Made by a program: the position numbers and the translations under genes | Part shown: positions 15,638 through 62,100 of the stretch, one piece after another | Numbering within the stretch: the stretch's first letter is position 1 | How the letters are laid out: each line of letters starts with the position of its first letter | Notes under the pieces: generated by a model | Databases searched by the model: none | Seen by the model: the letters and a program-made list of their open reading frames with translations, nothing else | Told to the model about the DNA's origin: nothing | Assembly: GCA_043823745.1 (NCBI GenBank) | Contig: JBDRAN010000035.1 | Location: forward strand, 13,795-77,794 | Direction of reading: 5' to 3' | Length of the DNA: 64,000 bases | From: Candidatus Omnitrophota bacterium | GTDB lineage: Bacteria; Omnitrophota; Gorgyraeia; Duberdicusellales; 4484-171

Positions 15638-15639
15638 AA

Positions 15640-15780: not shown

Positions 15781-16749
15781 TCACCGCTGGTACCGTATTC
15801 GCGGATCGGCATACGCAAGTAAAATATCGCTTAAAAGGTTACCGGCGATAAGCATGATTCCGCCGATAAGCATAGCGCCCATCACTAAATATAGATCCTG
15901 ACTGCGCACCGCCTCAAGCGTTACCTGCCCTAAACCCGGCCAGCCGACAATAATTTCCACCAACGCCGCGCCGCTTAATAAATCAGCAAACTGATATCCA
16001 AAAATAGTAATCATAGGGTTAAGCGCGTTACGCAGCGCGTGGCTATACAGAATGCGCGTACGACTCAATCCTCGCGCGCGCGCGCCCAAAATATAGGTAG
16101 AGCCTAGTATTTCAAGCATATGAGCTCGCAATATCTTATGCAGGCTGGCAATACTTCCGATCGAAAGCACCAGCACAGGAATAATAAGATGCCTCAGAAG
16201 ATCGCCTGCTTTCTGCCACGGCGAAAGCTCCTCAAAAAGAAGCGAGCGCATACCTCCCAGCGGGAACCATCCCGAAAAAGTAGCGGCATAGAGAAAAATA
16301 AAAGCCCAAAAAAACGCGGGCGTTGAAATGCCTACATATGAGCATAAGGAAAGGACTTTATCGATTAACTTATTTTTATGGAGAGCCGCGGTCACACCGA
16401 GAGGAATAACGATGAGCCACGTAAAAAGAAGGGATGAAAGCGCCAAAAGGACGGTGTTAGCCGCCCGCGCTGCAATGACGCGCGCGACAGGAGCTTTGTA
16501 CGCGAATGAATAACCAAGATCTCCGGAAAAAATGTTTTTGAGCCACACTCCGTACTGGACAAGGAAAGGCTTGTTGAGGCAAAATTTCTCCTCATAAAGC
16601 CGTATCGCGTCACGCGACACTTGGGGGTTAAGACGCAGGCTATCAAGAAAATCGCCGGGAGCAATATGGATAAAAAGGAATGCGAGAAATGTTATAGTAA
16701 AAAGAAGCGGAACAACGTACAGGAGCCGCTTGACAATATAATAGCGCAT
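15781..16749 (-). CDS. Opp/Dpp-type ABC transporter permease (B subunit)
   Basis: 322 aa with a typical DppB/OppB N-terminus MRYYIVKRLLYVVPLL and about six TM segments. Confidence 0.7.
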   Translation of the reverse strand: MRYYIVKRLLYVVPLLFTITFLAFLFIHIAPGDFLDSLRLNPQVSRDAIRLYEEKFCLNKPFLVQYGVWLKNIFSGDLGYSFAYKAPVARVIAARAANTVLLALSSLLFTWLIVIPLGVTAALHKNKLIDKVLSLCSYVGISTPAFFWAFIFLYAATFSGWFPLGGMRSLLFEELSPWQKAGDLLRHLIIPVLVLSIGSIASLHKILRAHMLEILGSTYILGARARGLSRTRILYSHALRNALNPMITIFGYQFADLLSGAALVEIIVGWPGLGQVTLEAVRSQDLYLVMGAMLIGGIMLIAGNLLSDILLAYADPRIRYQR

Positions 16750-16794
16750 CGTACGATAGACCCATTATTCCTGCTACAGGAGCCGACAGAAAAG

Positions 16795-17106
16795 CTAGAC
16801 GACCTTCTCAAGCGGCTGTGCCATCTCCCTGTTAAACGCGATTCCGGCATGCCAACTCTCACCGATTTTTTTACACCAACATACTTTTCCGAGTGCTGTT
16901 ATTACATCGTACGCCCGGGCCTCGAGAGAAAGGCCGGCATACGAATCAACCGCCAAAGGCTCATTCGCGCTTACGCGCGCGCCATGAGCGCTGATATCAA
17001 GGCACTCGATTCTGCGGGAGAAATTGTCCTTTGAAAAAAATAATCCTTTCAAAGAACATGGAACGCGCGGCGATCGCCGCCTGCTACCATACAACTCTTC
17101 GCCCAT
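16795..17106 (-). CDS. PilZ-domain protein (putative c-di-GMP receptor)
   Basis: RRxxxR motif (RRRSPRV) followed by DISAHGARV...DSYAGLSL, i.e. the PilZ (D/N)xSxxG pattern. The ATG at 17104-17106 is preceded by a perfect AAGGAGG Shine-Dalgarno at 17111-17117. The track's TTG start at 17175 is unlikely. Confidence 0.65.
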   Translation of the reverse strand: MGEELYGSRRRSPRVPCSLKGLFFSKDNFSRRIECLDISAHGARVSANEPLAVDSYAGLSLEARAYDVITALGKVCWCKKIGESWHAGIAFNREMAQPLEKVV

Positions 17107-17110
17107 ACTT

Positions 17111-17117
17111 CCTCCTT
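17111..17117 (-). promoter_or_regulatory. Shine-Dalgarno AAGGAGG for the PilZ gene
   Basis: Reverse complement of CCTCCTT, 4 nt upstream of the ATG at 17104-17106. Confidence 0.6.
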
Positions 17118-17177
17118 TTTTATTGTAACATGTAAATAATTTAATAAAATATTTTTCGCATTGCGCCCTATACAATT

Positions 17178-44100: not shown

Positions 44101-47100
44101 TCCGTCAGAGAAAGCTTTCTGCCGCGCCTAGCAGACTCTGATCTAACCAATAGCTTTATAAAGTCCCTTCTGTCCCATCTGCGGTCTCCCTCGGCAATTA
44201 TACTCGTTCGTTCTATATCTTCCACATCATCTAACTCTAACGACACTCTGCACCGTCGAATAACAAGCTCTGGTTTGCTCTGTGGCGCCGACGAGCTAGC
44301 TGAAGAAGCCCGACCACAAGCCGCATTCACACGAGCTGCCGACGGCGTTATAGTCGCCTGAGCCAATATCTGGCTGGCCCAACTTGTAAAATCATCGTCT
44401 ATTTTTAGATCCTGAGCCGGTATGCCGCTCGGCGCAAAGGCATCACGGAGAGAATAACCCGGGCTCTCTTTAACAAAGATTATCCCAAGCATCGTTCTTA
44501 ATACTGCTGACATATAAATATCACTTTCAAACAAATCCGTCATCACCCTGGCATTATCAATACTGTTGTCGGGCTTAACCAAATAACCAAAATACTTTAG
44601 ATATCTTTGATAATCAGCATTTTGAGACTCTTTATCAACTCTACGGCAATACGCCTTAAAATCACTTATTTGTGACATCAAATAAAGTATTTGCACGGTA
44701 CTGGCTTCAATTTCAGCGGCCCACAGGGAAAACACCGTTCGTTTTAATTTATTTCGGTATTCACCGTCCAATGCGCCGTATGAAAAGCAGTAAGTCAATG
44801 GGTTGTCGTGCCGCATAATCTCTTCATTGAGTTGGCGATACTGCTCGAACAAACCCCGCTGACGCCGCAACAGATGTGTCGCTTCATGAAGCAAAACAGC
44901 CTCAAGGTCGATATCAGTAAATTCAGAAACTGTTTTACGATTTACCTTTAAAAATATATTCTTGAGAGTAAACGGTCCTGGTTTGACGGCAATGGCCAAA
45001 TAGCCTTTTACTGCCGGCTCGAGCTGAAGTGTTGGTATTACCTTACATACTTGACCCAGCTCTAACAGCTCTTGCTGTGAAAAGTGGTTTAATCTTTTGA
45101 GTGCGTCCATGTTAGCAACTAAACGCCCAGATGCAGCAGCTATCTCTTCTTTAATAACAGTAAGAGATTTGGATGCCGGCGAGCTACTGTGAGGCTGCCC
45201 TTTTGCAGGACTTGGCGCAGACGTTTCATCTGCAAGATAGGGTTGTATCATGCCTTCAGGCAAAAAGGTAGCAACTGAAGAGCTGGTATCTTCTTGGGGC
45301 ATATCCCCGGAAACATGTTTCTTTAAAAACCTGCACACTAACGCAAGTCCTTTATTATTAATGCGATATACAGCTGTTTTTCCGCGGCGCAGAGTCGTCA
45401 AGTAGCCCCGCGTACGAGCTGAGTTAATAAGGCTTTGTACGTTCCAATTCTTACCATAAAATACGGATGCTTGCGCGATATCGTTCCATGTGCATCCTTC
45501 CTGCAACGTTGGCTCGGTCGCCACGCTGAAGAGTAAAATATGATACCCACAAAGACCTGTTTCAACAGGATAATTTTGAGCGCTATAATATTTCCAAATT
45601 CTTCCTAAATCATTACCAAACGCTTCCAGCACTATTGTATCTATGGCGTGTTTAAGTGCCTTGTTTGTTCTTGCTGGAGCCGTTAATGATCGTTTCATTT
45701 TTTTATTGTCTGCCAGTGAGCTGGCCATCTTCGGGTCGTGATTCGTGAGTCGTGAGTCTTGAGTGATAGAATACTCATGTTCACTTGTGACTGGTGACTT
45801 GTGACTGGTGACTTGCTTTGCTGGTGAGCTGGCCCCTCTCTCTAAATGCTTGTTTTCTCCCAAACCGCAGCAGAGACTCAAGATAGCTTCCGCATCTATA
45901 TACGGCTGGATCATGAAAAGTACGGCCCCGACACAACCGGTTTTTTCACCCCACTCCACGCGCAGCGCTCCCCGATCATTAAACTGAGCCTTTTCTCCAG
46001 CAACCTTTATTTTCCTAACCCCCATATCTTTCATTTCGTAGATTACTTTCTTCCAGACCAGCTTAACATCTCTTAATCCAAGCACCGGTACTATCGCATG
46101 TTCGGGTAGAATAGGAACAGGACGACTATCGGTTCTTGCCGGGATTAATACTACTATTGCTTCGGTTTTAATTCTGCTCGGAATCTTTGACAACTCTGGC
46201 CCTCGTCCTTCACAATCAGCCAATACAAATACTACTCCTTTAGCCGACTTTAAAAACTCTACCATGTTATGAAAGTATGAGCTTGCGTTGTGAGCAAGTC
46301 CGCAGGGTACAAAAATAGTTTTCCCTCTCTTTTCATGGTGCCACCGCCCAACATAACCTCCCAATATATGTACTAATAAGGTGACCTCACCACCATTGCT
46401 CCTGATTGCTTCTTTAACCGTTTTTGAACAGCGACCTAAAGCATCGTCGTAGCGAATCACTCTTTTATAAATCTCCTCTTTTTCTCCGACCCTAGGTGAA
46501 TTCTGCTTGGCCTCTCCATAATACAAATTATTCCAAAGCGTAACCAACCCCCAGTTATATTGGGGTTGATCATCCGCCCTCGGCGAGCTGGCCCGTTCTT
46601 CGATCCTCGATTCTGGATGCTCGATGCTCGATAGGAGGGTAGGCATGGCTTTTATCCCCGCTGCGCACTCGGGCATGCGAAAAGTTACAAAATCCACAAT
46701 ATCTTTTTCAAGAGTTTCCCTGTCACCGATCCACCTCAATGATGCTAACCTTTCCAGGTACTTCCAGTAACTTCTTGAGTCGAACTGGCTGAGATGATTC
46801 ACCCTCCCTGAACGGAAGAATCTTCGTAATTCCGGCAATAAGTCATCGTTGTTTCTTACACAGCTCATATATAGAATAAGATCTCGCCCAACCTGCCGCG
46901 CTTCTTCTTTCTTCTCTTTTTCGGGTGTCCTAATTGTGTTATCATGGCCTAACTCATGGAAAAGACGCTCGGCCATAATCCAAGAAGTAGCTTTCCTATA
47001 TGAAGGGCTAGCATGACGGTCTATTAAAGTAGTAACGAAATTCCTATTAAATACGATGAATACCCTTCCTGTCGAGTCAATATGTTTTATGGAGTTAAAG

Positions 47101-50100
47101 GGAAGATTCTTAGCGACAAGGATTGGTATGGTCGTACGTTGTGGCACATTTTGCTTTAATATATTTACTAATATTTCGGCGGCTTCAGTCCCCTCAACCC
47201 TTCTTTCCAGCTCGTTTAAAGCGTCGTCAAGGAGATTCTGCAGTTTATTTCTACCGATTGTTGGCTTATTTATGCGCCGCTTTATCCTTTTCTCTCTGTC
47301 AGTTTCGAGTAAGACTGGACCGAGAATGCTGTCATATATTAACTTTTCAACCGACAGCTTTTTTATTCCAGGAGTTGTAAGCATAGCCTTGAAACCGTCC
47401 CCGGATAATAAAGCCTCCTGAGTCCCTGATCTATCGGCAGCCTCAAATAGTCGCCTTGTCCCTACAGGACTATTTATTAAACTGGCGCTTTCCAGTGCCG
47501 GCGAGCTGGCCTCGTCTTTATTGTGCGTATTGTCCCCTTCGGGGAGGCTCCGCCTGCCCTTCTGGGCGGCTCCGCGCCGTATTGCGTCAGAACCCGGTGA
47601 GCTTGCCTGAAAAGGTTCCGGGGATGAGGATTCACGCCTCTTTTGTATCAACCTGGAATATTCAGGATCGCGCGGCTTCATAAGCCTCTCGTGCCGACGC
47701 TGCATTACAGAAGAAGAAGATTGTTGTAAAACATTATCTTCCCTCTTCCCGGAAGCCAAATCGTAATCCTGCTGGCTCAGTTTCTCAAGGTGCGCCGTAA
47801 CTTTAACAATTTTTCTTGTTGAAGGTTCCCCTAAAGAGCTTGAGCTCACGTTACGTTTTGTCGGAGAAACAGTTGAACCGGAAGCACTACGAGTCGCACC
47901 GAGCACATGGCTACGTATCTTTCGTTTGACTAAAGCAAGATTCCTTGGGGTATTTTTCTCAAAATCATTCTTGGTAAAATAAAACGGCGGGTACCCGTTA
48001 TTTATCAAAAAGAAGTTCATTAAAAACCAGGCAAGTCTATGGTGCCCTTCGTTGAACGGCGGAATCCCATCCCAATAGCAAAATCCCTCTCCCGATAATA
48101 TCTCCTCATGAAACCGGAACTTATCCGTAGGATAAAGATATATTTCCCTTGCGAGTTCTACGACCCTGTCTATACCTTCTGCTTGCACCCGGGAATTAAC
48201 CATTTCAACCAGATACGGCAAAGGTTTAAATGGGTTCGATAGGGTGCGAATTCTTTTCTGGCGCGTTTCATTGAGATTAAGCTTCCTCTTCTGTTTGCCT
48301 GTCCACCCTGTGGCAACCTCTGGTTGTTCTTTTACTGTTCTCTTATCTCCCATCATCAGTTCATACAAAATAGCGATATTCCTATATGTTATCCTTTCTT
48401 GTTGCGTGACGACTCTATTAAAATAAGAAACTGCTTCAAGAAAATCATTAAGAAAATTTCCTTGCCGTCTCTCTCTAAGAGACGGTACAGATGCAAATAA
48501 CGCACGTATTCTTTCGGGATCGATTGTATGTACGACTCTCTTAATAGATGAGGAACCGGTCGTGCTTGAAGCGGTGCCCTCACCTATTATAGCCGGAGCA
48601 TTTTTATCACCAAAACCCACGTCCGCGGAAAATTTATATCCCAATGCCTTGGCCCGCTCGACTACCGAGCCCATACCAATACCGATAACGACTGATGAGC
48701 TTGCTGCCTGACCAGGAACGCTTGCCGTTGGCTCTGAGATAAGTTTTTCGATGAGCTCTTCGTGCTTTCTGATAATAGGCTCATGAGCAAAGCGCTCCAT
48801 GACAAACGGCCGCGCGGCGCGGCCCATGGCTCGGGCTCGCGCGGGGTTATCCAGAAGAAACCGTAACGCACGGGTAAGCGAATTAATATCAACGCGGCTA
48901 TGGAACTTATTCGTGCATTCGATAACATCAACGAGTATGCCGGTTTTACCAGGGATAAATACTTCGAGATTCCCGCCCCGATTCGTGGTAACGATCGGTT
49001 TTCCCATAGCATGAGCTTCAAGAATAACTCCGGAAATACCTTCGTTAAAGACCGTAGGGAATGCTACGATTGACGCTGCATCAATGTGATCTCTCATTTC
49101 CTCTCTGCTATGAACCGGGTTGAGTATCTTTACCACATCGTGCAAGCCATGGCGCTGCATATAGATTTGTATATTCTGCAGGTATCTTCGTTGCAGATGT
49201 TCGCCCAGAATAATCACCAAGAAACGGTAATTCATATCCTTGAGCCGGTGTGCGGCTTTAACCAGCTCGAAGATTCCTTTACTTGCCACGATACGGCTGG
49301 GAGAAAGAATAATCGGTTTTTGATCGCACCCAAGCTTTTTACGGATCACTCCAGCGCGGGCAGGATCAGAAGAAAAAATGTCCAGGTCACGAAGGCCCGG
49401 TATGTGTACGACATCACGAGCAAACTTTTTGCGTGCGTCCCGCGCACCCCGAGCCGATATGGTCACCAATTCGCTTGCTCTGCTGATCACTTCTTCGAGG
49501 TTTCGCTGACGGCTCGAGTCATCGGTAATCAATTCTCCTTCGTGCCACTGGACTAAAAGCGGTATGGCCCGCTGGGCTGCCATGCGGCTGGCTTCAACCG
49601 CTAAACTACTTTTGGGACTGTGAATACGGACCACATCGATTATCTCCCCCCTTTTCTCTCCCATCAATGCGGCAACACGGGCAAGAATATCTTTTTTAGT
49701 AGTTTCGCCGTATTGGTGGTATCGGTGATGAATAATCCGGGAGGATCCTACCTGCTCAACAAAACCGCGGTCGGATTGCTGGCGAGGGACTTCATAGAAG
49801 ACATGTGTGGTAAGATTCTTATGGCGTGATGATAAGGCGTGGTTAAGGGCCACCAGATGCAAGGCTTGACCAGTGGGACTGGCGTAATGATTGGTCATCA
49901 TCAGGATACGTTTCCCGGAAAGGCTCGATGAAAATGCTACCCTCGGCGGGCCGCGGCGACTAATTGCACCTGACAAAGCTTCTAATCGACTACGCGCACC
50001 AGGAAATGGGCGCCGCGCAAGAGATCGATGCAGAGCTACTTCTTGATATATTCTCTTTGCTCTGGGCAATGAAAGCATATATATATAGGAAAGCGGCGAC

Positions 50101-53100
50101 AGATGGAGTCTTTCGGGCGCGGCCTCAGGAATCCCGCGATGCGTATCAGGTACCGATGTCACAACGGCTGACTTGACTGAGGTTAGTGAACTGCTGCTAT
50201 TCTTTGTAGCTCTTGTTGGGCTGCGCCCCAGCGCGTCCCGTAGGGGACTGCGCCGCAATTCAGCCATTACGTCGTCAAATATACCCCTGAAGGCTGATAT
50301 AACAGGAACAATACACCGCTCTATCTCTGCTTGCGAAGGAGCTCTGTGATGGGAGAGACGACGCGCCCATCCCGAGAATTTACCTGAGAGCGTTTTTTCT
50401 ATTTCCGTAACAAAAAGGGTAGGTAAATATTCATCTAAAGCCTGCCTCAATACAATACCAACAACATCAGAGGACAGACGACGCTCAAGCTCTTGTCTAC
50501 GGGTAGCTTTAGCTTGCTGCAATTGCCTCTTATCAGCCAATTGCGCAGGCGCACTATTCGCAAGCCAAGCCTCTACTTTCCTGTCAAGGTAGTAGCCTCT
50601 AAAAAACGTGTCGCGGTCCGGCCTGGCGTAATTCTTAAGCGCCTCCATCATGAAAGCAATAATCGACTTTTCGATAAAAAATACATTGTCCGGTTTCCTG
50701 ATGTGGTGACAATTAAAGGTAGCTCCCCACCGCGCGATGAACGGTAGAATAGTTTTTATGACTTCTGACAATCTATTTTGAGTTTTCTCCTCAAACAGCC
50801 TCATCGCTCGACTATGCTGTCTATTTTTTGTAAATACAGCAAGCGCCTCTTGTTGTACGTCACTATAAAAAACCTGAATTGACCTCTCCAAAATGTTCAG
50901 GGACTCAGGGGAAAAATTTTTCCTAAGCACACCAAGTGATTCATTTACTCCAGAGCCAGCTACTCCACTTAATCGAGCCATTCGCTTGATGAGGGAACCG
51001 ATAATCTCTAATTCTTCAACAATCTCCTTGTGAGGCTTCCTCTGCGAAGCGGAACTAGAAGAATTGCAGTTAGACTTTGAATTGTGATTTTTCAAATCTA
51101 CCGATGAGCTACTGCGCGGATACCCTTTACCCATGCGCGGATGAGTTATCTGCAAGAGATTAGTATGCGCGACCCATTCGGCTCCTTGTGGTCTTTTCCC
51201 GATCGTTGTACGGCCATCCTCTGTGCTCACCCATACGGGAAATCGCACATCGGCGGCATCAGCCGACAGTTCGGCCTGGCGTGCGGAGGTGGCTTGATCT
51301 AATGCTTTGCGTTTAAAATCATCCCACCGGCCGGGGCTCCATATTTCAAGACGGTCGCCAACGCCGACAAACACTGCGATATCGGCCAGGCCAGCGAATT
51401 CCCGTAAAGCACGCGGTATATGTAATCGAGAATTCCTGTCTATCGCAGCCATGGGTATTCTGTCTTGTGGTTTTTTATCTCCGAAACAAAGATAGCCTTC
51501 ATCTCCTTTATATAGATAAAGCTTGGAAGAAGCCAAATCCTTCCGCCAGGCCGCGGGAATTAACAGCCGGCCTCGGTCGAGTGAGCGCGAATGCGTACCG
51601 ACAAAGATTCTTGAGGAAACCGATGAGCTGCCATAACGGGGTACAATACTGCTTGAAGCAATAAATTCTTCTGCCAGACCCTTAATATAGGAAGATGCTT
51701 CTTGGTCCTCGAACTCTTGAGGTGTTTCCCCAATCAGCGCATCTTGGTATCTTCGTGGATTGATTTGTAAAAACGGGATACCTTCACGAGCATGCGAAGT
51801 TACGTAATAGCGGTGAGCGGCTTGTTTACCATAAGGCACTACATAGAGACTCTCGGCTGCGGTTTTAAGCGCTGCCAATACGGTTCTTTCTTTTTCCGAA
51901 GAGGCACGAGTAGACATCGCCTCATGCAATATCCTTTGCGCGCTGTCAAGATAGAGGGCGCCGTCATCGGCAAGATCCCCAAAACGTATTGTACTCTTAC
52001 GCCTCAATAAAGCAGTCACCTCTTTAGAAGTAACAATTTCCGCCTGCTCGCCCAAATGTTTATTCATCATGAACGTAAGCGCATGCACAAGGCTATTACG
52101 CTGTTCAAATACCTTAAGCCGTTGTAGAAAATCTTGAACGTTGCCAAGCCCTGTCTGTTGAGCGAAAAAATCACCGATTAAGCCAAAAAAACCGAGTGAA
52201 GATGCGCGAGGTTGATACTGCGGGCTTGAACTGTCTGCTGCTTGCGGCGAGCTGGCCTGGTAAAGGCGTTTTGCGTCCGCGGGGCTTTGCACCTGTTGTG
52301 CCCGAAGGTTATTCAAAGGACTAGAACTCTTAAGAGAGTCCGCTATAAGTGTTTCTATAAAACCTCCCTCATTCTCTTCCGCTCCAATCATTCGCGCACG
52401 ACCGAATTGTTCATTCCTAAACGCAGATGTTGTGTCGTTAAAACCATAGTGAAGAAAACGTCTCATGCCGGCTTCTTTTGCAGCAGGAATGTACCGGTCA
52501 ACCTGATTATCAATAAACACCGGGTATTTTGGCTCGCCATACTGCTTTCTATATTTATCAAGAGCAATCTCAAATATTTTTTTCCCGTCCGATTTCACGG
52601 TTCCATGTTCACCGGTAATCACAATTAAGTCCGGATCGATAAGGCCCGGGTAACACCGATCAAATAGTTTCATCATCCACTTTCTGCCAGCCGCCTCAAA
52701 GTTCGATATAACTCCGAATCTTATTCCTCTCTCCGATTGAACTCTCAATAAATCATCGAGCCTTTCTTGAATCCATGGATTTGCGCTCATGGGGCCGAAA
52801 TAGGCCTCCTCAAACTCATCTTGAGTAACCGGCCGAACTGCACCGTAACCTAACAAATACCTACTGATAAGGTCAACCCAACGCTTAAACGTTTCTGGGT
52901 TGCGATGTAAATCATGCCGGGCAATTATCTCAGAACCTTCATCAACTTCTTCCGGCGGAATGATCAGTCGGTGTAAACCCTCTCTGAAACTCGGCTTTTT
53001 CTCCGTTTGCCACCCTTCACTATCGGTTAAACCTGAATATGTTCCTAATCTTCTGAGTGTTTCATCGAAGAAATCTTCAATCTGAGTGCCTAAAACCCGC

Positions 53101-56100
53101 CCATAGTCAAAAAATACAATGTTGGTTTGTCTACTCTGTTGCGGAGAACTGGCAGCGGCAGGATTATAAGGTATTTTAACCGCGACAAAAGGATTTTGGC
53201 CGGTGCTTTCGGAAGGCGAGCTGCCCCTTGTTCGTCGTGCGTATTGAGTATCGAGTATTGAGTTTGAATCCGACGAACTGGCGGCAGGATCGGAAAAAGG
53301 CCGCTGTCCCATTTTTTCTGTTCTGCCATTTAGCCCTAAGCCCCTGGCCGGCGACGAGGCGGAAATAATAATATTTGGCAACATTACAGTGACTGTAGTC
53401 CCCACATTTTCCGTGCTATCAATTGTTACTGTACCGGATAACCGACAAACTATAAGTCTAACCCAATTAAGCCCTACCCCGCCTCTATGACCAGGATAAA
53501 TAAAGCTTCTTTTAGCATTTTCGGCTCGATACCCGTTCATTTTCCGAACCAGTTCTAGCTCTGCTTGAGGAATACCAATACCTTGATCTCTCACTAGAAG
53601 AGTTAAATATTTACTTTTTGAACCATAATCAATATCAATTGCAATGACCGTCTCAGGATTATCTTTTTTACAGTATTTATAGGCATTTTGAAATAAGTGA
53701 TACAAAATACTTGTCACCTGTTTAAATAAAGCTTCATCTAAAATCTTATCTGCCAGGCCATCAGGAATGGAAATCATAACTCTAAACTGCTCTAAAACCC
53801 TTGCTGTTTTGATTACCTCATCCACGGTAACACTCATAGATAAAGAAACGTTTTCACCGCTTAAACCGGCTAAAATCATATTCCTTCTAGTCGGATCTTG
53901 AGGAATAAAATGCTCCACAATTACATGCGGAACAATCTGCTGCAGAGAGCGAACATCTCCTTTATAAAGCCCCACAAGTTCTCCTATACTGTAACATTTC
54001 TCACCCGGTGAGCTGGCTTGGGTTTCAATTGCTGTTTTACCACGAATATTTCTTAGGTTGTTCGAGGAATTTTTTTGGATAAACTGTCTTAAGATTGATT
54101 CCCTGGGAATTACGACATCAACGGGGGCGAGACGAACCGGTTTCAAAAGAGAAATCAACCTCCGCATAACCGTCAACATCTCCTCCTGTCTCACTTCTTT
54201 CAAGTCACTCTGCAATATACCCCAAACTTCTCTTTTGAGTATAGGCAATTCATAAGGCGCGTAGGCTTGAACGGTCACATCGGCATGTACCCACTGCGGA
54301 TAGAGGTCATCAAGCATCTGTCCGTGTTGTTTTAAAAAAATGGCAATTGTATCTTTTGGTTTTTGCTGTTCAGTGAGCCACTTGTCCAGAATCTCCCGGA
54401 GCAGGCGCGCATGAAGAGACGTAAAGGGATAGTTTCCTTTCAATTTTAAACTGGGCGCGGTATTGACAAAAACCTTAAACACAGGTACGCTTTTTGCGGA
54501 AAGCTCTTTCAGTAATCCAGGAGAGAACGCCTCGATACCTTCAACAATCAAGGTTTCATCGGCGGCAAGCCTTAAACTGCGCGGGTTGACTGAACCGTAA
54601 TAATACTGCTCGGCGCAATTTAAGTTAACCCTGGCACCGCCTAAGAGGCCGATAACGTCAGTGGGGGCATGATAATCGAGGTGCAAGACTTTGGCTTTTT
54701 CACCGTTCCTTAGGAGCTCGCGTTTCAGATTGTGGGAAAAAGCTGCTTTTCCTACGGCCAAAGGACCGGTTACCAGAACCACCCCCCGTTCGTGAAAGAA
54801 ATTCTTGGCAATCTGGACGGTAATTGAACGCAGGCCTTCCTCAGCGCGCTCCTCCACGGCCTTGATAAGCTTCTTTAACCGCCCCTCGTCAACAAAAGAA
54901 TTTAACTCTTCAAGCGTATCTGGAAAATGCAAGCTGAATTTAGCCACGTAGGGATGACGGCCGTTCTTATACCGTACTTTCAATCGGTTATCAGCGGCCA
55001 CACAGGCGTCGCTGACTTTCATCACAGCCAGGATCATTGCCGCGGCGCGCAGGTCCACATGGTAAGCTTTTGCCACTTTTATTACCTGCTCAAAAGCATT
55101 GACCATCCGCTCCTGGAGCATCTTATCCACTGCGATCAGGTGCCAATGCTCATCCTGTATATTCTGGGCCCATTCAAAATAAGATACTGTTACCCCACCG
55201 GAATTGGCTAAGATATCCGGCACAATGAGTATGCCTCGCTCAAGAAGAACCTCTTCAGCTTCGGGTGTAGTGGGGCCGTTTGCACCCTCAACTATCAAAC
55301 GGGCTTTAATCCTTTCGGCGTTGCCGGCATGAATTTGATTTTGGACTGCCGCCGGAATTAGGATATCAACCTTGGCTTCGAGAACTGCTCCGCCCGCTAC
55401 CCGGACAACATCAGGATAATCAAAATCCTTAAGCTTCCTACCTTGAGAAAGGTATGTCTCTAAAATCGCAAGGAGTCTATTGTTTATTCCTTTAGGAATA
55501 TGAATTCCTCCAGAATCATCGCTGATATAAAAAATCTTACGGCAGCCGCTTTTCTGTAAAATTTTAATCAGCTCAAAGCCAACATTGCCTGTGCCCTGAA
55601 TAGAGTAACTACATTTTCTAAAATCTTGAGGAAGTTTAAGCTTTTGAGCGTAACACCGCACAGATTCGCGGATAATAAAATAAAGCCCCTGGCCGGTTGC
55701 TTTGCCTCTTCCCTGCGAACCGCCGGCACTAAGAGGTTTACCGGTAATTACCGCCGGTTGCGGACCTTGAGCTTTAATTTTTTCATATTCAGATCTCATC
55801 CAAGCCATATATTGAGGGTCAACGCCGACATCAGGTGCCGGTATATCGCTGAATGGACCGATTGCCTCAGGATCTTTTTTGAGCAGCTGGCGCACATAAC
55901 CGCGGCAAAGTGTTTCCATTTCAGTCAGGGAAAGCGCCTGAGGATTAACGACAATGCCTCCCTTTGCCCCGCCAAAAGGAACGCCGACCACCGCTGTTTT
56001 CCAAGTCATATCCGTAGCCAAGGCCCGTATCATACCGCTGGTAACTGCCGGATGAAACCGAATTCCACCCTTACCTGCGCCCCGGGCCTTGTTATGGCAA

Positions 56101-59100
56101 ATACGGTAGCCTTTAAAATACATGGTCATTCCCTCTTGCTTAAAACAACCGGTATTGCTACGGGTCCTTGAGCCTTTATCCGTTTTAACCGGAATATCTA
56201 CCTCAACTACTTTGGCCGCATGAAACAATTTATTAAGAATCTTTCTGTCAAGCTTTATTCTTTGAGCAATGGCAAACAGATGTCGGGAGACATTTCTAAA
56301 ATAAGCATCGTCTAAATCGTCTTTGTCCCGCCGGCTCAACCTAAGGCCTGCTTTATGGGCTAAAGCAACAACCGCGGCTTTTTCCTCTGCCGGCGAACTG
56401 GCTGCCTTCCTGGAATGGAAAAAAACGGCGATTCCAGGCATAGTGCCTGCCCCATGAATATCCACGCCATCCAGAACCTGCATATTTTCCTTCATCAATC
56501 TGCCTTGAACGGGATTAATGAATCCCATTCTTTTTTCCCCATTATCTATAGTAGCTACGGCAATGCCCAAGTGTAAATGCGGCTGCACGTCGCTGGAATT
56601 ATGGAAGGCTATATGCCCCACGATAGTTTTACCGGCCTTTACCTCATCGCCCACTCGTAAATTTCCCGGAGCAATATGCCCATAAAATATATCCGCCTTC
56701 TGCTGATAATCAACTACCACTTGCTCATTGCCAACATAAACAACACTGCCGTCGCAAACCGCTCTCACGGGCGTACCTACAGGAATCTTTTTTGCGGTAT
56801 AACGCCGGCTGCCCTTGCTATCAACCATGTAATATACCCAATCCAATCCGGTATGTGGCTGAACCCGGGAGGCAAAACCATGAAGATAATCCCAGGTCTG
56901 CGTGTGTCCGAAGAGGCTTCCCTGAGGAAAAAACCATCCTATGCAGTCATCAGGCACATCCACCCTGTCAAATGGAGAATGAATAATTATATCCCCGGGA
57001 GAACTGATCACCGAGGAAGAACCTCCACCTGATTCCCCTATCTTTATCGCTCTTTTATACAAATGACGACTACCCCGGCCTTTCAATCCCAACACACGGG
57101 TAGGAGTACTCGTTCCCGACCGGTTCCACGCTTGGGTAGTCTGCAACCCCAATTCATAATCCGGGCTGATCCAAACCCTGTTACCTGAGGCAGCGTCGAT
57201 CTGCAAGCTCCTGCAAGAGATATTTCCTCCTGTACAATAATCACAGCGTACTCCTTCATTCTGAAGAGAGGAACTTACGTTTCGAGGCATATTCTTATAT
57301 GCCTTATAATACTGAATACCGACGCGGACATCGTCCTGGCACAGTTCTACGTCAAATTTTAATTTATCCCTGAAAAATTCACCGTACCCTTGAGTATCGG
57401 AACATAACCAATACGTAACAAGCTGCTCTACGCCTATATTTTCTAAATATCTGACAAGAACGGAATACCAGGCTGTCCCGGTTTTGACTTCTTTATTGCC
57501 GCGGACGCTTTTATCTAACGCTAACCTGAAATAAGCGCTCTTTTTGTAAACACAGATAGAAAGATACGCGAGCTCATTCTGTTTGTAACGCAAACTAAAC
57601 GTAAGATAGTCATCTATAAATTCATCTAAACCAAACCACATTGCCTGCCAGTCTTCCAGTTCTAACCGGTGCCCCGGAGAAACCACAACGGTGAGTTTAT
57701 TTTCCGATTCGGGAAGACGTTTTGTTATTTCATCAACGGGGAATAACAACGCAGGGTTTTGTTTTATCTTCTCAAGAGACTCCGCGGAAAATCTATATAC
57801 ATGCTTGCTGGACACTGACGAGCTGGCTGGAGGTGAACGCCCCGGCCTGCTTTTCCAAGACAATAAATCAATCATATCGTTGGTGTCCTGAACAAAAATT
57901 ACCTTTACCGGCGAACTAGTACACTCTGCGTCTAAACTTGAAACCTGATTAATTCCGTTTATAAAATCATCCGTGCTCATCCAGTAATAGAGTTTTATCC
58001 TTACATATTTATTTTCAGTATTTTCCTGTCCCTTCCGCGTTCCGTTCAGATACACCGCCACTTCATAATCCCTAAACCCTCTTCTCAAAGCATCCTCTTG
58101 CTCTAATGTCCGGCCTTCCCCGCTCTTAACCAAAGCAATAACATCATTGATGGGGTATTTATCTCCGGAGGGAAAATGGAATACCTTATCGGCAATAATG
58201 TGATATGAAACACTTGTGTGGTCTCTCTTCTGCCAGTCGAGGATCGAGTGAAACGCGCGGCGCAGGCAAAATCCCGCATCATAATAACTACCGCAGAAAA
58301 CCACATTGCAATCCCTCTCTTTAGAACGCACCGGCCAACGGATAAATGCGCTCCTCTCGATTTCCCCGGCCGCGGAAGGAATAGCGACAGGCTTTAGTTT
58401 CTCTGCCTGTTCGAAATCTAAGGGATACATTAAAATGAGCTTCTGTCCGAAGATAACGCCTCTTTTCTCTAAAGCATTAAGAAGCCAATCATAATCCCGG
58501 TGTTGATGAGCCTCAACGCCCACCGTGAATCGTGAGTCAAGAACCACTCTACTCTCACCGGAGGCGGCAAGCTTACGTGTCACTGACGAACTGACTCCAG
58601 ACGCATCATGTGCGCCCTGCTGAGCCATGAACTTATCGAAATATGCTGCTAGCGTTTCGTGCGTCCGGGCTGCTGGAATATCGGTATCCCGAAAACCTGC
58701 GGAGCTTGCGACAGCGTACAACGGCTCTCGGGCATATTCAGGCTCGCGCCAGAAATAATCTGAAGTTACCGAGGGTTCGGCTTGGCGCCAGGCAATGAGG
58801 AGCGCCCCTCCCTGGAATTGCGAGAATGGATAGCCGACAGGAATTTTTTTACGTGCAACTACGGTAAATCCTTTGTTCTTGAGCTCGCGTTTTATTTCTT
58901 TATCTTTTCCGTTTGCAATGTCTTTTGGTTTGACAGAAACAAGCAGTAAGCCTTCATGCGCGAGAACGTTCACAGCTTGCATAAGCACTTCTGTGTCAAC
59001 CGCGCCATGAAGAATGATGATATCGCATGATGCCGGAAGATGTTTATTTTTCCCTGATACCCACCTAAGCATAATGCTCCTTGTTTCTTCACCGACCTCA

Positions 59101-62100
59101 AAAGTTTGCGGTATGTTTTCCAGTGCGCGCCTCAATTGCCTGCGGAAGAGTGTATGTGTAGTACCTAAATCAGTTATCGTAATTTCTCCATAAGGCAGGC
59201 GACTTATTACTATCTCTTGAATGCTTTTCGCACCGGCAACGGTATCTAAGAAAGTTTTCTCTTTCCTGACAGAAGAAGAGCTGGTGACCGACCGTATCTG
59301 CTCAGCAGGATCCGGCGTGTTCGCATCGACTCTGGATACACGGCCATGGCTAACGAGTTGCCTTTTGCTTTGATCCGTTGGAGATTGAATCCAGTATTCT
59401 GTCGGACGGCCGGTTTCATAATCAGGCGACTCGATTTCCTTTCGAATCTTGTGATCAACAGAAATCCACTTACTGCGAGCATAGCGGTCCTTAATCCGCC
59501 CCAAGAAAAGCACTTTTGCTTTTATTAGAACCGCGGCTGCCGGCGCTTCGGGCGGCATTCGCCAGTTAAGCCCTTCAACAACGAAAGAATTTCCTCCCCT
59601 TACCCATACCTGTGTGATCCTCTCTGATTCCTTAAGCGGCCGGAATAAATAATATGATTTATTCTTACTCACACCCGCTCTTACATAATAGACATGCTGT
59701 TTCTTGCTGGCGCACCAGAAACTTAAAAAGTCAGGGGGGCTCCTTCCAAGAACCTCGGCAGGAACCATTCTTGCACCTTCTTCCGTTACGTGCCTGCCTA
59801 TTATACTAACTTTCTTTTTTAAGATCTGGGTTAACTGTCGAGGGTTACAAATGCAAGCAGGATAAAAGTCGGCGTCTCTTGTCACTTGCGTTGTAAAATC
59901 TCTTCTCACCGCGACATGAGCGCTATGAACGTTGAAATTAATTTTCGCATTCTGAATGCTGAGTTCCCGCAACGGGCTCAGGCCTTGCCACTCAGTTGTC
60001 CCGATTCCCACTGCTGATAACCACTTCGTCAACTGCAGTTCAAACTCTCGAAACAACTTAAAATCACGCAGGTTCACGGTAACTAAACCGCTTTTAGTCG
60101 GTGCTCTCTTTGAGGAAACCACCGCCCCTGTCCTCATAAACACATTTTTTCCTTCTTTGTGGTCTCTGGCAATGACCACGTAGAGGCTTGAATTAAGCGC
60201 GTCTTGCCACACGCAATAGCGCGGTTTTTTCGAGCGGTCTGTATATACTTGCAGGAATGTATCAGACTTCACGCTTCTACTTCCCAGGGCCTCAGCACGA
60301 AGCTGCTGCTCATGAAAACGAACTACATTACCCTGGTGGGTATAGGGTTTTCTGTTCCCGGTAATCCAGGCGGCAACCCTGCTTTCCTTCTCAGCGGGCG
60401 TAAGCTCATCTCCATAAGCCCCCATCACCATATCTTCAAAGTGGTAAAATAATTTATTTTCAAATAACGATATGTTCTGTTTCTTCGCTATCCGCTGTGT
60501 TTGGGAAACACGCTCCGGGTCAGGTAAATATTCGGGTATGATCACAAAATGCTTCGGTTCCGTCTTTATGCGAATACGCTGGACGGGATTACTCTTATTT
60601 TCAAAAATAATTTCCCCTGGCCTGCTCTTAATATTTATTCCGCTCTCGATATATCGAGGGTACCTGCATACGCTGCCGGAATAGGGAAGGTTTATCTCTA
60701 CGTACCCTTGTTGATATCCTGGCGAGCTGGCGGTAGGATAGTTCGTAAGCTCATAAGCTGATAAGCTCGTAGACTTTCGAAACTGATAACGTTGTGACCT
60801 GGTCCCCTTCGGGGAGGCTTCACTTCGTTGCGCACTGCCCTGCTGGTTTTTTTGAGAAGGTGAGCTGACAACGTCTACTTCGGAATTATACGGACTGATT
60901 TTAAGGAGATATTTCGACTGAAGCGGCCCAAGCCGGCCATATCGAAATAACTGGATATAAAAAGGTAATTCAAGACTGATAAGGCCCTCAAGCTTTTGCC
61001 TGGTTTCTCTGCCAGAACACCCCTTCGCGCCAACACCCAGCCTAAAAGGCTCTTCGTTCACCCTAACGGCATGGATACGCCCATGCCGAAGGACCCAAAC
61101 ACTGACTAACGTTTCAAATTCAGGCCATGATTGAATTAGACGTACATCAGTAAGAGGTTTTTGCAGCGGGGAGCTGGCTCCGTCAGACTCAAGATTCAAA
61201 AGCGCCCGGTGGTGATCGATAAGCCACTGCATCTCATCGGCGCGCTCAGGATACCTCTTTTTTAAAGAATCGCGTAATTGCCTGTCCTGTTGCCGCGCCG
61301 CTTCGCGCGTGCTATCCGGCCCCCAGCGAGCGTATCGTTGAGAACGACCCGTATAGTGGCGGCAGTTTTCTTTCCCGGCACGTTTGCTTGCCCGCGCCTC
61401 CGGCATTACGCTCTGTTCTATTCTCGGATAATCCTGTTCTCGTCGTATAATATCAATTGCCTGCAACAGATTGCTTGCCTTGAAACTTTGCTTATATACT
61501 TCATCCAATAATTTTATTTTAGATAAAAGGGGTATTTTTCTATCCATAAAGCCTTCGAAACAGGCAAGCGCGAGAAAGAAAATATTCGCATACCACATCG
61601 TCAAGCCGTTATAAACAGGAGCATGAGCATGATAGTGGGCAATTTTTAATAGATATGTTACAAGAGGCTTTCCGCCTTCAGAGCGATGAATGATGTCAAT
61701 AACGATGGGCTTATTTTTTCTGCTCTCAAATACAGCCTCGATGTCTTTGATGGCTGCCTGAGCCTGACCGTTCATGCCCGCGGCGGTAGCGTTAATAATA
61801 ATATCGGCCTCTTTGAGCCGGCTTAACAATAGGGGGCTATCCCGGGCATCCTCTGTCTCGATCAATTCCAAATCCGGTGCAGCCTGCTGCGGCCTATTGC
61901 CCGGAACAATCGATGCAATGCTCCCCGTAAGGTGCGATGCACAGCATAATTCTTTAAAAATAGTTTTGGCATTCTCAAATGAAGCGCTTCGATGGCTGAT
62001 GCTGATGCGTAGCGGTTTATGCATCTTCTCCTGCGCAAGAGCTTGGGCAATCGCCTGGCCAGCCCCCCCGAAACCCAACACCACTACTTTTTTACCGCGC

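What the first reader, a model, noticed from the sequence alone, without database searches (positions are those of the whole stretch)
54990..56250. A complete glutamate-dehydrogenase-family domain, with all catalytic signatures intact, is embedded mid-polyprotein
The segment carries GAGKGGIRFHP, VPFGGAKGGI, GTGNVG and VEGANGPTTPEA. Together these are the full substrate-lysine, catalytic-lysine and dinucleotide-binding signatures of Glu/Leu/Phe/Val dehydrogenases. The domain sits between an M23 peptidase and a P-loop kinase in one frame with no stops. A central-metabolism oxidoreductase is not expected as a bead in a giant secreted or membrane protein. It may deaminate amino acids released by the neighbouring peptidases, or it could be a recruited scaffold.
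Basis: partly seen in the sequence, partly recalled or inferred. Interest (0 to 1): 0.6.

Follow-up and report, generated by a model that had tools for sequence, protein, structure and literature searches.

The report
Glutamate dehydrogenase cassette inside giant protein
A complete glutamate dehydrogenase with an intact active site really is embedded in a protein of more than 15,000 residues from an Omnitrophota bacterium, as part of a two-domain unit (dehydrogenase plus a degenerate kinase-like domain) that recurs in many other very large proteins of this group.

Summary
All four motifs lie in one open frame of at least 15,593 codons (17178 to the window edge). Pfam gives ELFV_dehydrog 1.5e-64 and ELFV_dehydrog_N 6.5e-41; the best solved relative is Thermotoga GDH at 8e-99.

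Every catalytic and glutamate-specifying residue is present. The AlphaFold model superposes on Thermococcus and Thermotoga GDH at TM 0.92-0.95.

New here: the GDH is not a one-off bead. It is the front half of a conserved cassette of about 790 aa, followed by a uridine-kinase/PanK-like P-loop domain whose Walker A has lost its Ser/Thr (GPLAVGKA). The same pair occurs in 36 of the best 150 representative clusters and in 10 of 10 fetched loci, in proteins of 750 to more than 6,900 aa. Most named ones are Omnitrophota.

The fused GDHs split from a narrow sample of stand-alone GDHs (100/100 NJ bootstraps). 30 of 31 keep all active-site residues.

In this protein the cassette is bracketed by an ASSP motif that occurs 32 times against 0.3 expected and never interrupts a Pfam domain.

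Most likely this is an active GDH module with a nucleotide-binding partner domain. Its compartment and its role are unresolved.

The parts
17178..64000 (-). Giant open reading frame, at least 15,593 codons and open at the window's right edge, so the N-terminus is not in the window. It is a mosaic of enzyme modules.
   Evidence: Pfam hits: M23, ELFV_dehydrog_N/ELFV_dehydrog, HATPase_c, MraZ, GT4, Transglut_core, Trypsin_2, Pyridoxal_deC; HATPase_c_2 and CPT fall below their Pfam cut-offs. Public fragments that are 100% identical, P0121 (aa 805-2096) and P0122 (aa 3209-5001), come from a Candidatus Omnitrophica MAG.
56559..56786 (-). Peptidase M23 domain (aa 2392-2467), with zinc-ligand motifs HTGLD (aa 2369) and HLH (aa 2461).
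   Evidence: Pfam 1.4e-9 and 2.7e-10; motifs.
56391..56402 (-). ASSP punctuation motif (aa 2520-2523, GCCAGTTCGCCG) immediately upstream of the cassette.
54030..56381 (-). Conserved GDH + kinase-like cassette (aa ~2527-3310). Homology to relatives starts and stops here.
   Evidence: BLAST blocks giant 2516-3321 against L002, and 2492-3303 against L003, among others. Alignment A3. AlphaFold2 model with pLDDT 88 and pTM 0.88.
54960..56312 (-). Full-length glutamate dehydrogenase unit (aa ~2550-3000): ELFV_dehydrog_N aa 2607-2727 (55779-56141) and ELFV_dehydrog aa 2746-2986 (55002-55724).
   Evidence: Foldseek to 8xcp, 1euz, 2tmg and 1b3b gives TM 0.89-0.95 and rmsd 2.2-2.9 A.
56070..56072 (-). 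Lys2630, equivalent to K89 of Clostridium symbiosum GDH (binds the glutamate gamma-carboxylate).
   Evidence: The numbering equivalence is from established GDH literature, not tested here.
55998..56000 (-). Lys2654, equivalent to K113 (binds the alpha-carboxylate).
55962..55964 (-). Lys2666, equivalent to the catalytic K125; lies within the PROSITE PS00074 match.
55830..55832 (-). Asp2710, equivalent to the catalytic D165.
55578..55595 (-). GTGNVG dinucleotide-binding motif (aa 2789-2794).
55182..55184 (-). Ser2926, equivalent to S380 (glutamate specificity). Asn2894 of the EGAN motif is at 55278-55280.
54804..54959 (-). Helical connector between the GDH and the P-loop domain (aa ~3001-3052), conserved among relatives.
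54030..54803 (-). Uridine-kinase/PRK/PanK-like P-loop domain (aa ~3053-3310). Its Walker A is degenerate: GPLAVGKA (aa 3065-3072, 54744-54767).
   Evidence: Exhaustive HMMER search. Link to ~545-aa TGS+Udk-like proteins that hit Pfam PRK at 3e-16. Motif table. Foldseek best hit human UCK2 at E 2e-5, followed by TTM1 kinase, PanK and PRK.
54006..54017 (-). ASSP punctuation motif (aa 3315-3318, GCCAGCTCACCG) immediately downstream of the cassette, in a segment of pLDDT below 50.
53376..53717 (-). Next module: HATPase_c (GHKL ATPase) domain, aa 3415-3528, followed by ASSP at aa 3534.
12954..17175 (-). Genes directly downstream on the same strand: a PilZ protein and an Opp/Dpp-type peptide ABC importer (two permeases, two ATPases).
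8390..9280 (-). Class IV (branched-chain/D-amino-acid) aminotransferase gene. It belongs to the local amino-acid theme, not to the giant gene.

Best explanation
The segment encodes a complete and most likely active NAD(P)-dependent glutamate dehydrogenase module of the small, hexamer-type class.

Proposed chemistry, by homology to studied GDHs:
- Lys2630 and Ser2926 hold the gamma-carboxylate of glutamate.
- Lys2654 holds the alpha-carboxylate.
- Lys2666 and Asp2710 carry out the acid-base chemistry.
- GTGNVG binds the dinucleotide.

The module belongs to a distinct clade of GDHs that is always followed, after a ~50-residue helical connector, by a uridine-kinase/PanK-like P-loop domain. That domain has kept the P-loop Gly-Lys but has mostly lost the Mg-binding Ser/Thr. 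I infer that it binds a nucleotide as a regulatory or assembly domain and does not act as a kinase.

This ~790-aa cassette also exists as a stand-alone gene. In Omnitrophota it has been built, as one module among many, into mosaic giant proteins. In this protein the modules are separated by a short ASSP motif.

Shown here: identity, completeness, residue conservation, the obligate pairing, the clade, the module boundaries.

Inferred: catalytic activity, the nucleotide-sensing role of the partner domain, and a role in glutamate/amino-acid turnover alongside the protease and PLP-decarboxylase modules and the adjacent peptide importer.
For: Identity and fold: Pfam, PDB and NCBIfam scores; PS00074 match; fold TM 0.92-0.95 to solved GDHs.

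Conservation: 94 of 105 columns that are at least 95% conserved in stand-alone GDHs are kept. K89/K113/K125/D165/N/V377/S380 equivalents are kept in 30 of 31 fused representatives, whose GDH domains are about 40-65% identical to this one.

Obligate pairing: 36 of the 150 best representative clusters carry a GDH directly upstream of the kinase-like domain. All 7 GTDB loci and all 3 metagenome loci do too, in open frames of 2,137 to more than 6,952 aa.

Clade: the fused GDHs split from the stand-alone ones in 100/100 NJ bootstraps. This GDH is 60-65% identical to embedded ones and 47% to the best stand-alone.

Stand-alone cassette genes exist: P0147 (800 aa, Verrucomicrobiae MAG), P0153 and P0167.

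Partner domain: the two-domain model has pTM 0.88. The fold is closest to UCK2, PanK and PRK. Walker A Ser/Thr is replaced in nearly all fused members, while stand-alone TGS+Udk-like proteins keep GPSSSGKTT.

Precedent for a catalytically inactive nucleotide-enzyme homologue regulating a GDH: the Thermus thermophilus GDH-APRTh complex, as cited in PMC12301742.

Local theme: M23, trypsin-like and transglutaminase-like protease modules, a PLP-decarboxylase module with a related second copy, an Opp-type importer and a class IV aminotransferase.
Against: - No enzyme assay exists. The GDH keeps fewer of the highly conserved family columns than any of 120 stand-alone controls (89.5% against a mean of 98.8% and a minimum of 91.3%).
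- It scores below the NCBIfam equivalog cut-offs (393 against 750 bits).
- Family members of this class work as hexamers. Whether a bead in a chain of at least 15.6k aa can assemble is unknown.
- Many relatives carry a cleavable-looking Sec signal peptide with no membrane helix before the cassette. That would put an NAD(P)-dependent enzyme outside the cytoplasm, where the cofactor is not expected.
- The regulatory role of the P-loop domain is inference only.
- The clade test used a narrow sample of stand-alone GDHs and a distance method.
Confidence: 0.7

Rival explanations
1. Polyprotein reading. The giant chain is cut at the ASSP (or similar) motifs by one of its own proteases or a cellular one. 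This releases a free ~790-aa GDH + P-loop enzyme that can then hexamerise like an ordinary GDH. This modifies the best explanation and is compatible with it.
For: - [AS]SSP occurs 43 times against 0.7 expected, and not at all in 5,090 aa of neighbouring proteins.
- It never interrupts a Pfam domain. It sits within about 5-20 aa of the ends of the cassette, of HATPase_c and of the HAD-like module.
- The downstream copy lies in a low-confidence, presumably flexible segment.
- Another giant gene (L013) has ASSP 13 times with different codons, so the peptide is what is selected.
- Protease modules are present in the chain.
- Stand-alone cassette genes show that the unit can work alone.
- West-Roberts et al. 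suspected cleavage but had no cleavage points.
Against: - There is no proteomic evidence.
- The motif could equally be a linker, a modification site (Ser-Pro) or a junction scar.
- Several cassette-bearing giants show no such motif (P0124, P0125, P0145, P0157).
- Residues flanking the motif are variable.
Confidence: 0.3
2. Exported or host-directed module. The cassette works outside the producer's cytoplasm, in an enlarged periplasm or in prey cytoplasm or lysate. There it converts prey glutamate as part of an episymbiotic or predatory attack.
For: - At least 12 of the apparently full-length cassette proteins start with a short h-region (~11 aa) followed by a V/I-W-A cleavage-type site, with no membrane helix before the cassette. 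These include the closest relatives P0125 and P0128.
- 94% of Omnitrophota proteins of at least 10 kAA are predicted to carry a signal peptide or TM helices.
- Giant proteins have been linked to predation in the literature.
Against: - Signal peptides were judged by hydropathy and eye, not by a dedicated predictor.
- This protein's own N-terminus is unknown, and no convincing TM segment occurs in the 2,500 aa before the cassette.
- NAD(P) is not expected in the periplasm.
- No secretion-system genes occur in the 17 kb downstream.
Confidence: 0.15
3. Scaffold or hub only. The GDH fold is kept for its ability to oligomerise, cross-linking several giant chains, and catalysis is irrelevant.
For: Enzymes of this class are hexamers (established knowledge; solved hexamers are among the hits). 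A multimerising bead would be a simple way to build a lattice. The fused clade has changed several otherwise conserved surface or pocket residues, for example the Trp equivalent to W89 of Thermococcus GDH is Asp here.
Against: All substrate-binding and catalytic residues and the dinucleotide motif are kept in 30 of 31 fused representatives whose GDH domains are only about 40-65% identical to this one. A pure scaffold would not be expected to preserve these.
Confidence: 0.08
4. Artefact: a chimeric assembly or a missed stop or frameshift joins an ordinary gdh gene to unrelated sequence.
For: The public short-read MAG of the same organism breaks on both sides of this region. Its fragments cover aa 805-2096 and 3209-5001, not the GDH itself.
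Against: - 46.8 kb of uninterrupted frame.
- The public fragment P0122 starts inside the kinase-like domain, which in every relative is preceded by a GDH.
- The same embedded arrangement is found in 10 independent loci and 36 clusters.
- GC content of the segment matches the rest of the gene.
- There is no Met or start context at the cassette start.
Confidence: 0.02

Closest known systems
Small hexameric glutamate dehydrogenases of the Thermotoga/Thermococcales type (PDB 2tmg, 1b26, 1gtm, 1euz, 8xcp)
   Same: Same two-domain fold (TM 0.89-0.95, rmsd 2.2-2.9 A). About 40-47% identity over the full length. All catalytic and glutamate-specifying residues and the GxGNVG motif are shared.
   Different: Those are free ~415-aa proteins. 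This one is internal to a chain of at least 15.6k aa and has a 13-14-aa insertion near the N-terminus and a few smaller ones. It deviates at 11 of 105 highly conserved columns, for example GPxKGG becomes GAGKGG and the W89 equivalent becomes Asp. It is covalently tied to a P-loop domain.
Thermus thermophilus GDH regulated by a catalytically inactive adenine phosphoribosyltransferase homologue (Tomita et al. 2019, as cited in PMC12301742)
   Same: A GDH of the same class is paired with a degenerate nucleotide-metabolism enzyme homologue that could sense a nucleotide (3aoe and 3aog are among the PDB hits).
   Different: There the partner is a separate protein of a different fold (PRTase) and the effect is shown experimentally. 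Here the partner is a fused Udk/PanK-like P-loop domain and regulation is only inferred.
Omnitrophota giant proteins: 'Archaeovorins' (West-Roberts et al. 2023, bioRxiv 10.1101/2023.11.21.568195) and 'multi-enzyme metabolic clusters' (Nielsen & Lui 2026, bioRxiv 10.64898/2026.06.07.730766)
   Same: An Omnitrophota protein above 10 kAA, tiled by many different enzyme domains (peptidases, GT4, GHKL ATPase and others) with long unannotated stretches and internal paralogous modules.
   Different: Neither paper mentions a glutamate dehydrogenase or the GDH + kinase-like pair. No SecA DEAD or C39 domain was detected here. No type II secretion genes lie downstream; a peptide importer does instead.
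TGS + uridine-kinase-like proteins of about 545 aa (e.g. P0177, P0182)
   Same: Nearest sequence relatives of the partner domain outside the cassette. They share the fold and the C-terminal 'ADxxFNSxxxYELxxLK' region.
   Different: They keep the canonical Walker A GPSSSGKTT, the RLxRRIVRD lid and a ~25-aa substrate-region insert. This cassette and its closest relatives lack the Ser/Thr and the insert and have only part of the lid arginines.
Large bacterial GDHs (L-GDH, Pfam Bac_GDH PF05088)
   Same: These are also glutamate dehydrogenases with large extra domains.
   Different: A different GDH class. No PF05088 hit was found for this protein, and its catalytic core is of the small-GDH type.

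Membership tests
Glu/Leu/Phe/Val dehydrogenase superfamily (Pfam PF02812 + PF00208) | Both Pfam domains score above their gathering thresholds, in the right order. | tested here: met
   139.5 bits (cut-off 25.3) and 218.5 bits (cut-off 23.4), aa 2607-2727 and 2746-2986.
Glu/Leu/Phe/Val dehydrogenase superfamily | PROSITE PS00074 active-site pattern with the catalytic Lys. | tested here: met
   VPFGGAKGGIVVNP matches.
Glutamate-specific dehydrogenase, small hexameric class | Catalytic Lys and Asp (K125, D165 in C. symbiosum numbering) and the alpha-carboxylate Lys (K113). | tested here: met
   K2666, D2710 and K2654 are present, and are conserved in 30 of 31 fused relatives.
Glutamate-specific dehydrogenase, small hexameric class | Gamma-carboxylate recognition (K89 and S380 equivalents), which distinguishes Glu from Leu/Phe/Val enzymes. 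| tested here: met
   K2630 and S2926 are present. PDB hits are 1e-99 for GDH against 1e-8 or weaker for Leu/Trp dehydrogenases.
Glutamate-specific dehydrogenase, small hexameric class | Score above the curated equivalog cut-off of an NCBIfam GDH model. | tested here: not met
   GdhA_Arch 393 bits against cut-off 750; GdhB_Halo 343 against 620. It is a divergent member, not an equivalog.
Glutamate-specific dehydrogenase, small hexameric class | Hexameric assembly and measurable Glu/2-oxoglutarate + NAD(P)(H) activity. | not testable with these tools
   Needs expression, SEC-MALS and an enzyme assay.
Uridine kinase / PRK / PanK P-loop kinase family (partner domain) | Sequence or fold membership. 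| tested here: inconclusive
   No Pfam PRK hit directly. Significant homology to TGS+Udk-like proteins that do hit PRK at 3e-16. Foldseek best hits are UCK2 (E 2e-5, TM 0.60), TTM1 kinase, PanK and PRK.
Uridine kinase / PRK / PanK P-loop kinase family (partner domain) | Canonical Walker A GxxxxGK[ST]. | tested here: not met
   GPLAVGKA here. The Ser/Thr is replaced in nearly all fused members.
Omnitrophota giant multi-enzyme proteins | At least 10 kAA, many different Pfam families with none dominating, and Omnitrophota origin. | tested here: met
   At least 15,593 aa. Nine Pfam families above their cut-offs and two weaker ones. 100% identical fragments are named Candidatus Omnitrophica. Compared.
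Omnitrophota giant multi-enzyme proteins | Signal peptide and/or many TM helices; SecA DEAD-like domain; secretion or pilus genes nearby. | tested here: inconclusive
   N-terminus outside the window. Only 3-4 TM-like segments, at aa ~8678, ~9484-9527 and ~11513. No SecA or C39 Pfam hit. No T2SS genes in the 17 kb downstream; the upstream side was not seen.
Proteolytically processed polyprotein | Defined cleavage sites between functional units, and mature products. | not testable with these tools
   ASSP motifs at module borders are candidate sites. There are no proteomic data.
Large GDH (Bac_GDH, PF05088) | A PF05088 match. | tested here: not met
   No hit.

The most novel reading that the evidence does not exclude
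The GDH + P-loop cassette is a released, extracytoplasmic or prey-directed metabolic enzyme. The giant chain is a true polyprotein cut at ASSP-type marks. The cassette, which in its closest relatives follows a cleavable Sec signal peptide with no membrane helix in between, works where prey glutamate and NAD(P) are available. It would be part of the feeding apparatus of an episymbiotic or predatory nanobacterium.
Probability: 0.12. Interest if true: 0.85.

Novelty: new variant of a known kind. Interest (0 to 1): 0.6.

Why it matters
Giant Omnitrophota proteins are known, but what their enzyme beads do is not, nor whether the chains are cut. This work adds three things.

1. A central-metabolism enzyme inside such a protein is under clear selection for catalysis. 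It is not a decayed passenger.

2. It defines an undescribed GDH subfamily that is permanently fused to a degenerate uridine-kinase-like domain. The subfamily occurs from stand-alone 800-aa genes up to giants with open frames of more than 6,900 aa. That gives biochemists a small, expressible unit (~790 aa) with which to study a giant protein's function and a possible new mode of GDH regulation.

3. The ASSP punctuation offers concrete candidate processing sites. West-Roberts et al. stated that the lack of cleavage-point information blocked their analysis. Whether giant proteins are polyproteins therefore becomes directly testable by proteomics.

Tried and rejected
- The plus-strand reading of the stated coordinates gave only stops. 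My first minus-strand reference was out of frame.
- The word-indexed homologue search with the GDH domain returned only stand-alone GDHs at 48% identity or less. It wrongly suggested a singleton fusion. The exhaustive representative search with the downstream flank overturned this.
- The word-indexed searches with the upstream flank and with the kinase-like domain found almost nothing.
- Exact look-up of the neighbouring LysRS found no source contig.
- An exact 60-mer from the window edge found nothing in the metagenome collection, so the N-terminus could not be recovered.
- A 14-sequence alignment was too divergent for the locus scan. A 5-sequence one worked.
- A profile search of the kinase-like domain against PDB sequences gave only weak P-loop matches. 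The fold search was more informative.
- Recent horizontal insertion was rejected: GC content matches the gene, and the nearest relatives are embedded GDHs.
- Independent translation of the cassette was rejected: there is no in-frame Met or start at its beginning and no stop after it.
- A Leu/Phe/Val dehydrogenase was rejected.
- The ASSP motif as a purely DNA-level repeat was rejected: another lineage encodes it with different Ser codons.
- M23 as a conserved partner was rejected.

Full report
**1. What is at the coordinates**

The plus strand of 54990-56250 is closed by stops. The feature is on the minus strand, inside one enormous open frame listed as 17178..63959, 15,593 aa.

The frame is still open in the 13 codons between 63959 and the window edge. 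The protein is therefore at least 15,593 aa and its N-terminus is not in the window.

**2. Is it a real GDH domain?**

- Pfam gives ELFV_dehydrog_N (aa 2607-2727, 139.5 bits) and ELFV_dehydrog (aa 2746-2986, 218.5 bits).
- phmmer against PDB sequences puts Thermotoga, Pyrococcus and Thermococcus GDHs at 1e-94 to 8e-99. Leu/Trp dehydrogenases come in at 1e-6 to 1e-8.
- NCBIfam's best model is archaeal-type GdhA (393 bits), below its equivalog cut-off of 750. This marks a divergent member.
- The alignment to stand-alone enzymes runs from their N-terminal helix to their C-terminal helix, so a whole gdh gene's worth of protein is embedded (about aa 2550-3000). It carries a 13-14-residue insertion at aa 2598-2611 and a few smaller ones.
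- PROSITE PS00074 matches.
- The following residues are all present: equivalents of K89, K113, K125, D165, the EGAN Asn, V377 and S380 (Clostridium symbiosum numbering, from established GDH literature), and the GxGNVG motif.
- An AlphaFold2 model of aa 2540-3321 (pLDDT 88, pTM 0.88) superposes on solved GDHs at TM 0.89-0.95 and rmsd 2.2-2.9 A.
- One caveat: the domain keeps 94 of 105 columns that are at least 95% conserved in 120 stand-alone GDHs. That is fewer than any of those controls. Some of the deviations are states seen in other GDH classes; this last point is from my own knowledge and was not tested.

**3. The organism and the host protein**

Two public protein fragments are 100% identical to aa 805-2096 and aa 3209-5001. 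The first is named as a hypothetical protein of a Candidatus Omnitrophica MAG.

The chain carries these domains:

| Domain | Position (aa) |
|---|---|
| M23 peptidase | 2392-2467 |
| GDH | 2607-2986 |
| HATPase_c | 3415-3528 |
| MraZ | 4172-4224 |
| GT4 | 4873-5050 |
| Transglutaminase-like core | 6807-6918 |
| Trypsin-like peptidase | 8873-9029 |
| Second, weak GHKL ATPase | 10877-10996 |
| Weak CPT-type P-loop (the only canonical Walker A in the protein) | from 11134 |
| PLP-dependent decarboxylase, with a related second copy | 11789-11999 |

- Several modules are internal paralogues, for example aa 9061-9413 against 13189-13549 at 69% identity.
- Only a few TM-like segments are seen, all beyond aa 8600.
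- Downstream genes on the same strand: a PilZ protein, an Opp/Dpp-type peptide ABC importer, LysRS, a Lol-like ABC system, a class IV aminotransferase, McsA/McsB/ClpC and MlaEFD.
- This architecture matches the 'multi-enzyme metabolic cluster' class of Omnitrophota giant proteins and the earlier description by West-Roberts et al.. Neither paper mentions a GDH.

**4. The main new result: a conserved two-domain cassette**

The word-indexed search with the GDH domain returned only stand-alone GDHs at 48% identity or less. That suggested a unique fusion.

The exhaustive HMMER search with the 1,200 aa downstream of the GDH showed otherwise. The first ~320 residues after the GDH are a conserved domain. 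Every long protein that matches it well carries a GDH immediately upstream: 36 of the 150 best representatives, with lengths of 750-7,823 aa.

- A scan of GTDB species genomes with that domain found 7 loci. A scan of JGI metagenomes found 3 more. All 10 have GDH + this domain in one open frame of 2,137 to more than 6,952 aa.
- Named sources are mostly Candidatus Omnitrophota, including Ca. Tantalella remota. There are a few Planctomycetia-labelled MAGs, one Verrucomicrobiae MAG and one 'Deltaproteobacteria' MAG.
- Stand-alone cassette genes of 800-850 aa exist (P0147, P0153, P0167).
- This window's GDH is 60-65% identical to embedded GDHs, against 47% to the best stand-alone. The fused GDHs separate from 25 stand-alone ones in 100 of 100 NJ bootstraps. 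The sample is narrow and the method is distance-based.
- 30 of 31 fused representatives keep every active-site residue listed above. This is the strongest argument that catalysis, not just the fold, is under selection.

**5. The partner domain**

- Outside the cassette, its nearest relatives are ~545-aa TGS + uridine-kinase-like proteins. These hit Pfam PRK at 3e-16 and the NCBIfam udk model at 3e-27, the latter below its cut-off.
- The domain itself has no significant Pfam hit.
- Its AlphaFold model (pLDDT 87.5) is closest to human uridine-cytidine kinase 2, the TTM1 kinase module, type I pantothenate kinase and phosphoribulokinase.
- The stand-alone relatives keep GPSSSGKTT and an RLxRRIVRD lid. 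The fused ones keep G-K, but the next residue is A, M, L, I, V, Q, P and so on. Only two or three keep T or S, and the lid arginines are partly lost. This protein and its closest relatives also lack the ~25-aa insert after the DDYY-type motif.
- I therefore read it as a nucleotide-binding domain that is probably not a kinase. This is inference.
- The two-domain model has pTM 0.88, which suggests a fixed mutual arrangement.
- There is a precedent for a catalytically dead nucleotide-enzyme homologue acting as a nucleotide sensor for a GDH of this class: Thermus thermophilus GDH with its APRT homologue.

**6. Module boundaries and the ASSP marks**

- Homology between this protein and its relatives begins at aa ~2492-2522 and ends at aa ~3294-3321. 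Other shared modules occur in a different order, so these proteins are mosaics.
- The cassette is bracketed by ASSP at aa 2520 and aa 3315.
- ASSP occurs 32 times, and [AS]SSP 43 times, in the chain. Shuffles predict 0.3-0.7. It does not occur in the 5,090 aa of neighbouring proteins.
- It never falls inside a Pfam domain. It also borders HATPase_c and the HAD-like module.
- Most copies are encoded by the same 12-mer, GCCAGCTCGCCG. There are 26 copies with at most 1 mismatch inside the gene, all on the coding strand, against 0.25 expected. Nothing is conserved beyond about 14 nt.
- Another giant gene with the cassette (L013) has ASSP 13 times but with TCY for the first Ser. The peptide is therefore the selected feature.
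- Other cassette-bearing giants show other over-represented short motifs: SPSGE, RSELR, RSE[VI]R, RFAE.
- These are candidate processing or modification sites, or junction scars. I cannot distinguish between these readings.

**7. Where does it act?**

This is unknown for this protein, because its N-terminus is missing.

Many full-length relatives begin with a positively charged n-region, an ~11-residue h-region and a conserved FLxQ[QD]I[VLA]W-A site, with no TM-like segment before the cassette. These include the closest relatives P0125 and P0128. Judged by hydropathy and by eye, these look like cleavable Sec signal peptides.

That would place an NAD(P)-dependent enzyme outside the cytoplasm. 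This is the most surprising possibility and needs a proper predictor and an experiment.

**8. Verdict**

It is a genuine, complete, glutamate-type dehydrogenase with an intact active site, between an M23 peptidase and a P-loop kinase-like domain.
- It is best understood as half of a conserved GDH + degenerate-kinase cassette, built as one ASSP-delimited module into a mosaic Omnitrophota giant protein.
- A pure scaffold role is unlikely. A link to amino acids released by the neighbouring peptidases is plausible but untested.
- Novelty: a new variant of a known kind. Giant multi-enzyme Omnitrophota proteins are described. This GDH subfamily, its obligate partner domain and the punctuation motif are not described in the literature I could search.

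Noticed in passing
window 17178-63959 (-): 43 sites, e.g. 56391-56402, 54006-54017, 52245-52256, 47499-47510: The tetrapeptide [AS]SSP punctuates the giant protein: 43 copies against 0.7 expected, and none in the neighbouring genes. It always falls between Pfam domains or homology blocks. Most copies are encoded by the same 12-mer, GCCAGCTCGCCG, in frame on the coding strand. Another giant gene (L013) has ASSP 13 times with different Ser codons. These are candidate cleavage or modification sites, or module-junction marks.
   Followed up: partly
P0141, P0152, P0166/P0159, P0154, P0137, L002 (relatives): Other cassette-bearing giant proteins each have their own strongly over-represented short motif: SPSG(E) 11 times, RSELR 17 times, RSE[VI]R, (S)RFAE 12 times, SLDNGGSSP, S(S)EPGS. 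This suggests lineage-specific punctuation may be a general feature of these proteins.
   Followed up: partly
N-termini of P0124, P0125, P0126, P0140, P0142, P0143, P0149 and others: A conserved signal-peptide-like N-terminus: K/R-rich start, an ~11-aa hydrophobic stretch, then FLxQ[QD]I[VLA]WA[NAQ][PG]. In at least 12 proteins no TM-like segment lies between it and the GDH cassette. No dedicated predictor was available.
   Followed up: partly
C-termini of P0124, P0125, P0126, P0128, P0135, P0136, P0140, P0145: Many cassette proteins share a related C-terminal region. It ends in a short conserved stretch such as ...YERLQKLLRFA...EGQVKALVAA or ...REVLIRA. This could be a sorting or assembly signal. 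It was not seen at the C-terminus of this window's protein.
   Followed up: no
window 63960-64000: The giant frame has no stop before the window edge, so the listed GTG start at 63959 is not the true start. Giant aa 1-91 recurs internally at aa 13083-13173 (54% identity) and inside the L002 frame.
   Followed up: partly
window aa 9061-9413 vs 13189-13549; 6066-6216 vs 7635-7785; 11421-11659 vs 11825-12058: There are large internal paralogous modules at 34-69% identity, including two PLP-decarboxylase-like units. L002 shares several modules with this protein in a different order, so these giants look like shuffled mosaics.
   Followed up: partly
L010 6019-10520 (JGI 3300032731 contig): A stand-alone cassette gene (P0167, 839 aa, with a signal-peptide-like start) is directly preceded by separate M23 peptidase and DUF1846 genes. 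This echoes the M23-then-GDH order seen fused in the window. It is a single case.
   Followed up: no
window 3958-8258 (-): McsA-like (UVR), McsB (ATP:guanido phosphotransferase) and ClpC genes sit next to Mla and Lol-type envelope genes. A Gram-positive-style arginine-phosphorylation protein-quality-control system sits in what looks like a diderm genome.
   Followed up: no
P0124 aa ~640-665: A twin-arginine/lipobox-like sequence (SRRSFLKGILLFFGLGGLFSLLGC) lies deep inside a 5,883-aa protein, upstream of its GDH cassette. It looks like the retained N-terminus of a once separate gene.
   Followed up: no
tool behaviour, vs 31: The word-indexed protein search missed embedded GDH relatives that are 60-65% identical to the query. 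The exhaustive representative search found them. Conclusions of 'no close relative' from the indexed search alone would have been wrong here.
   Followed up: yes
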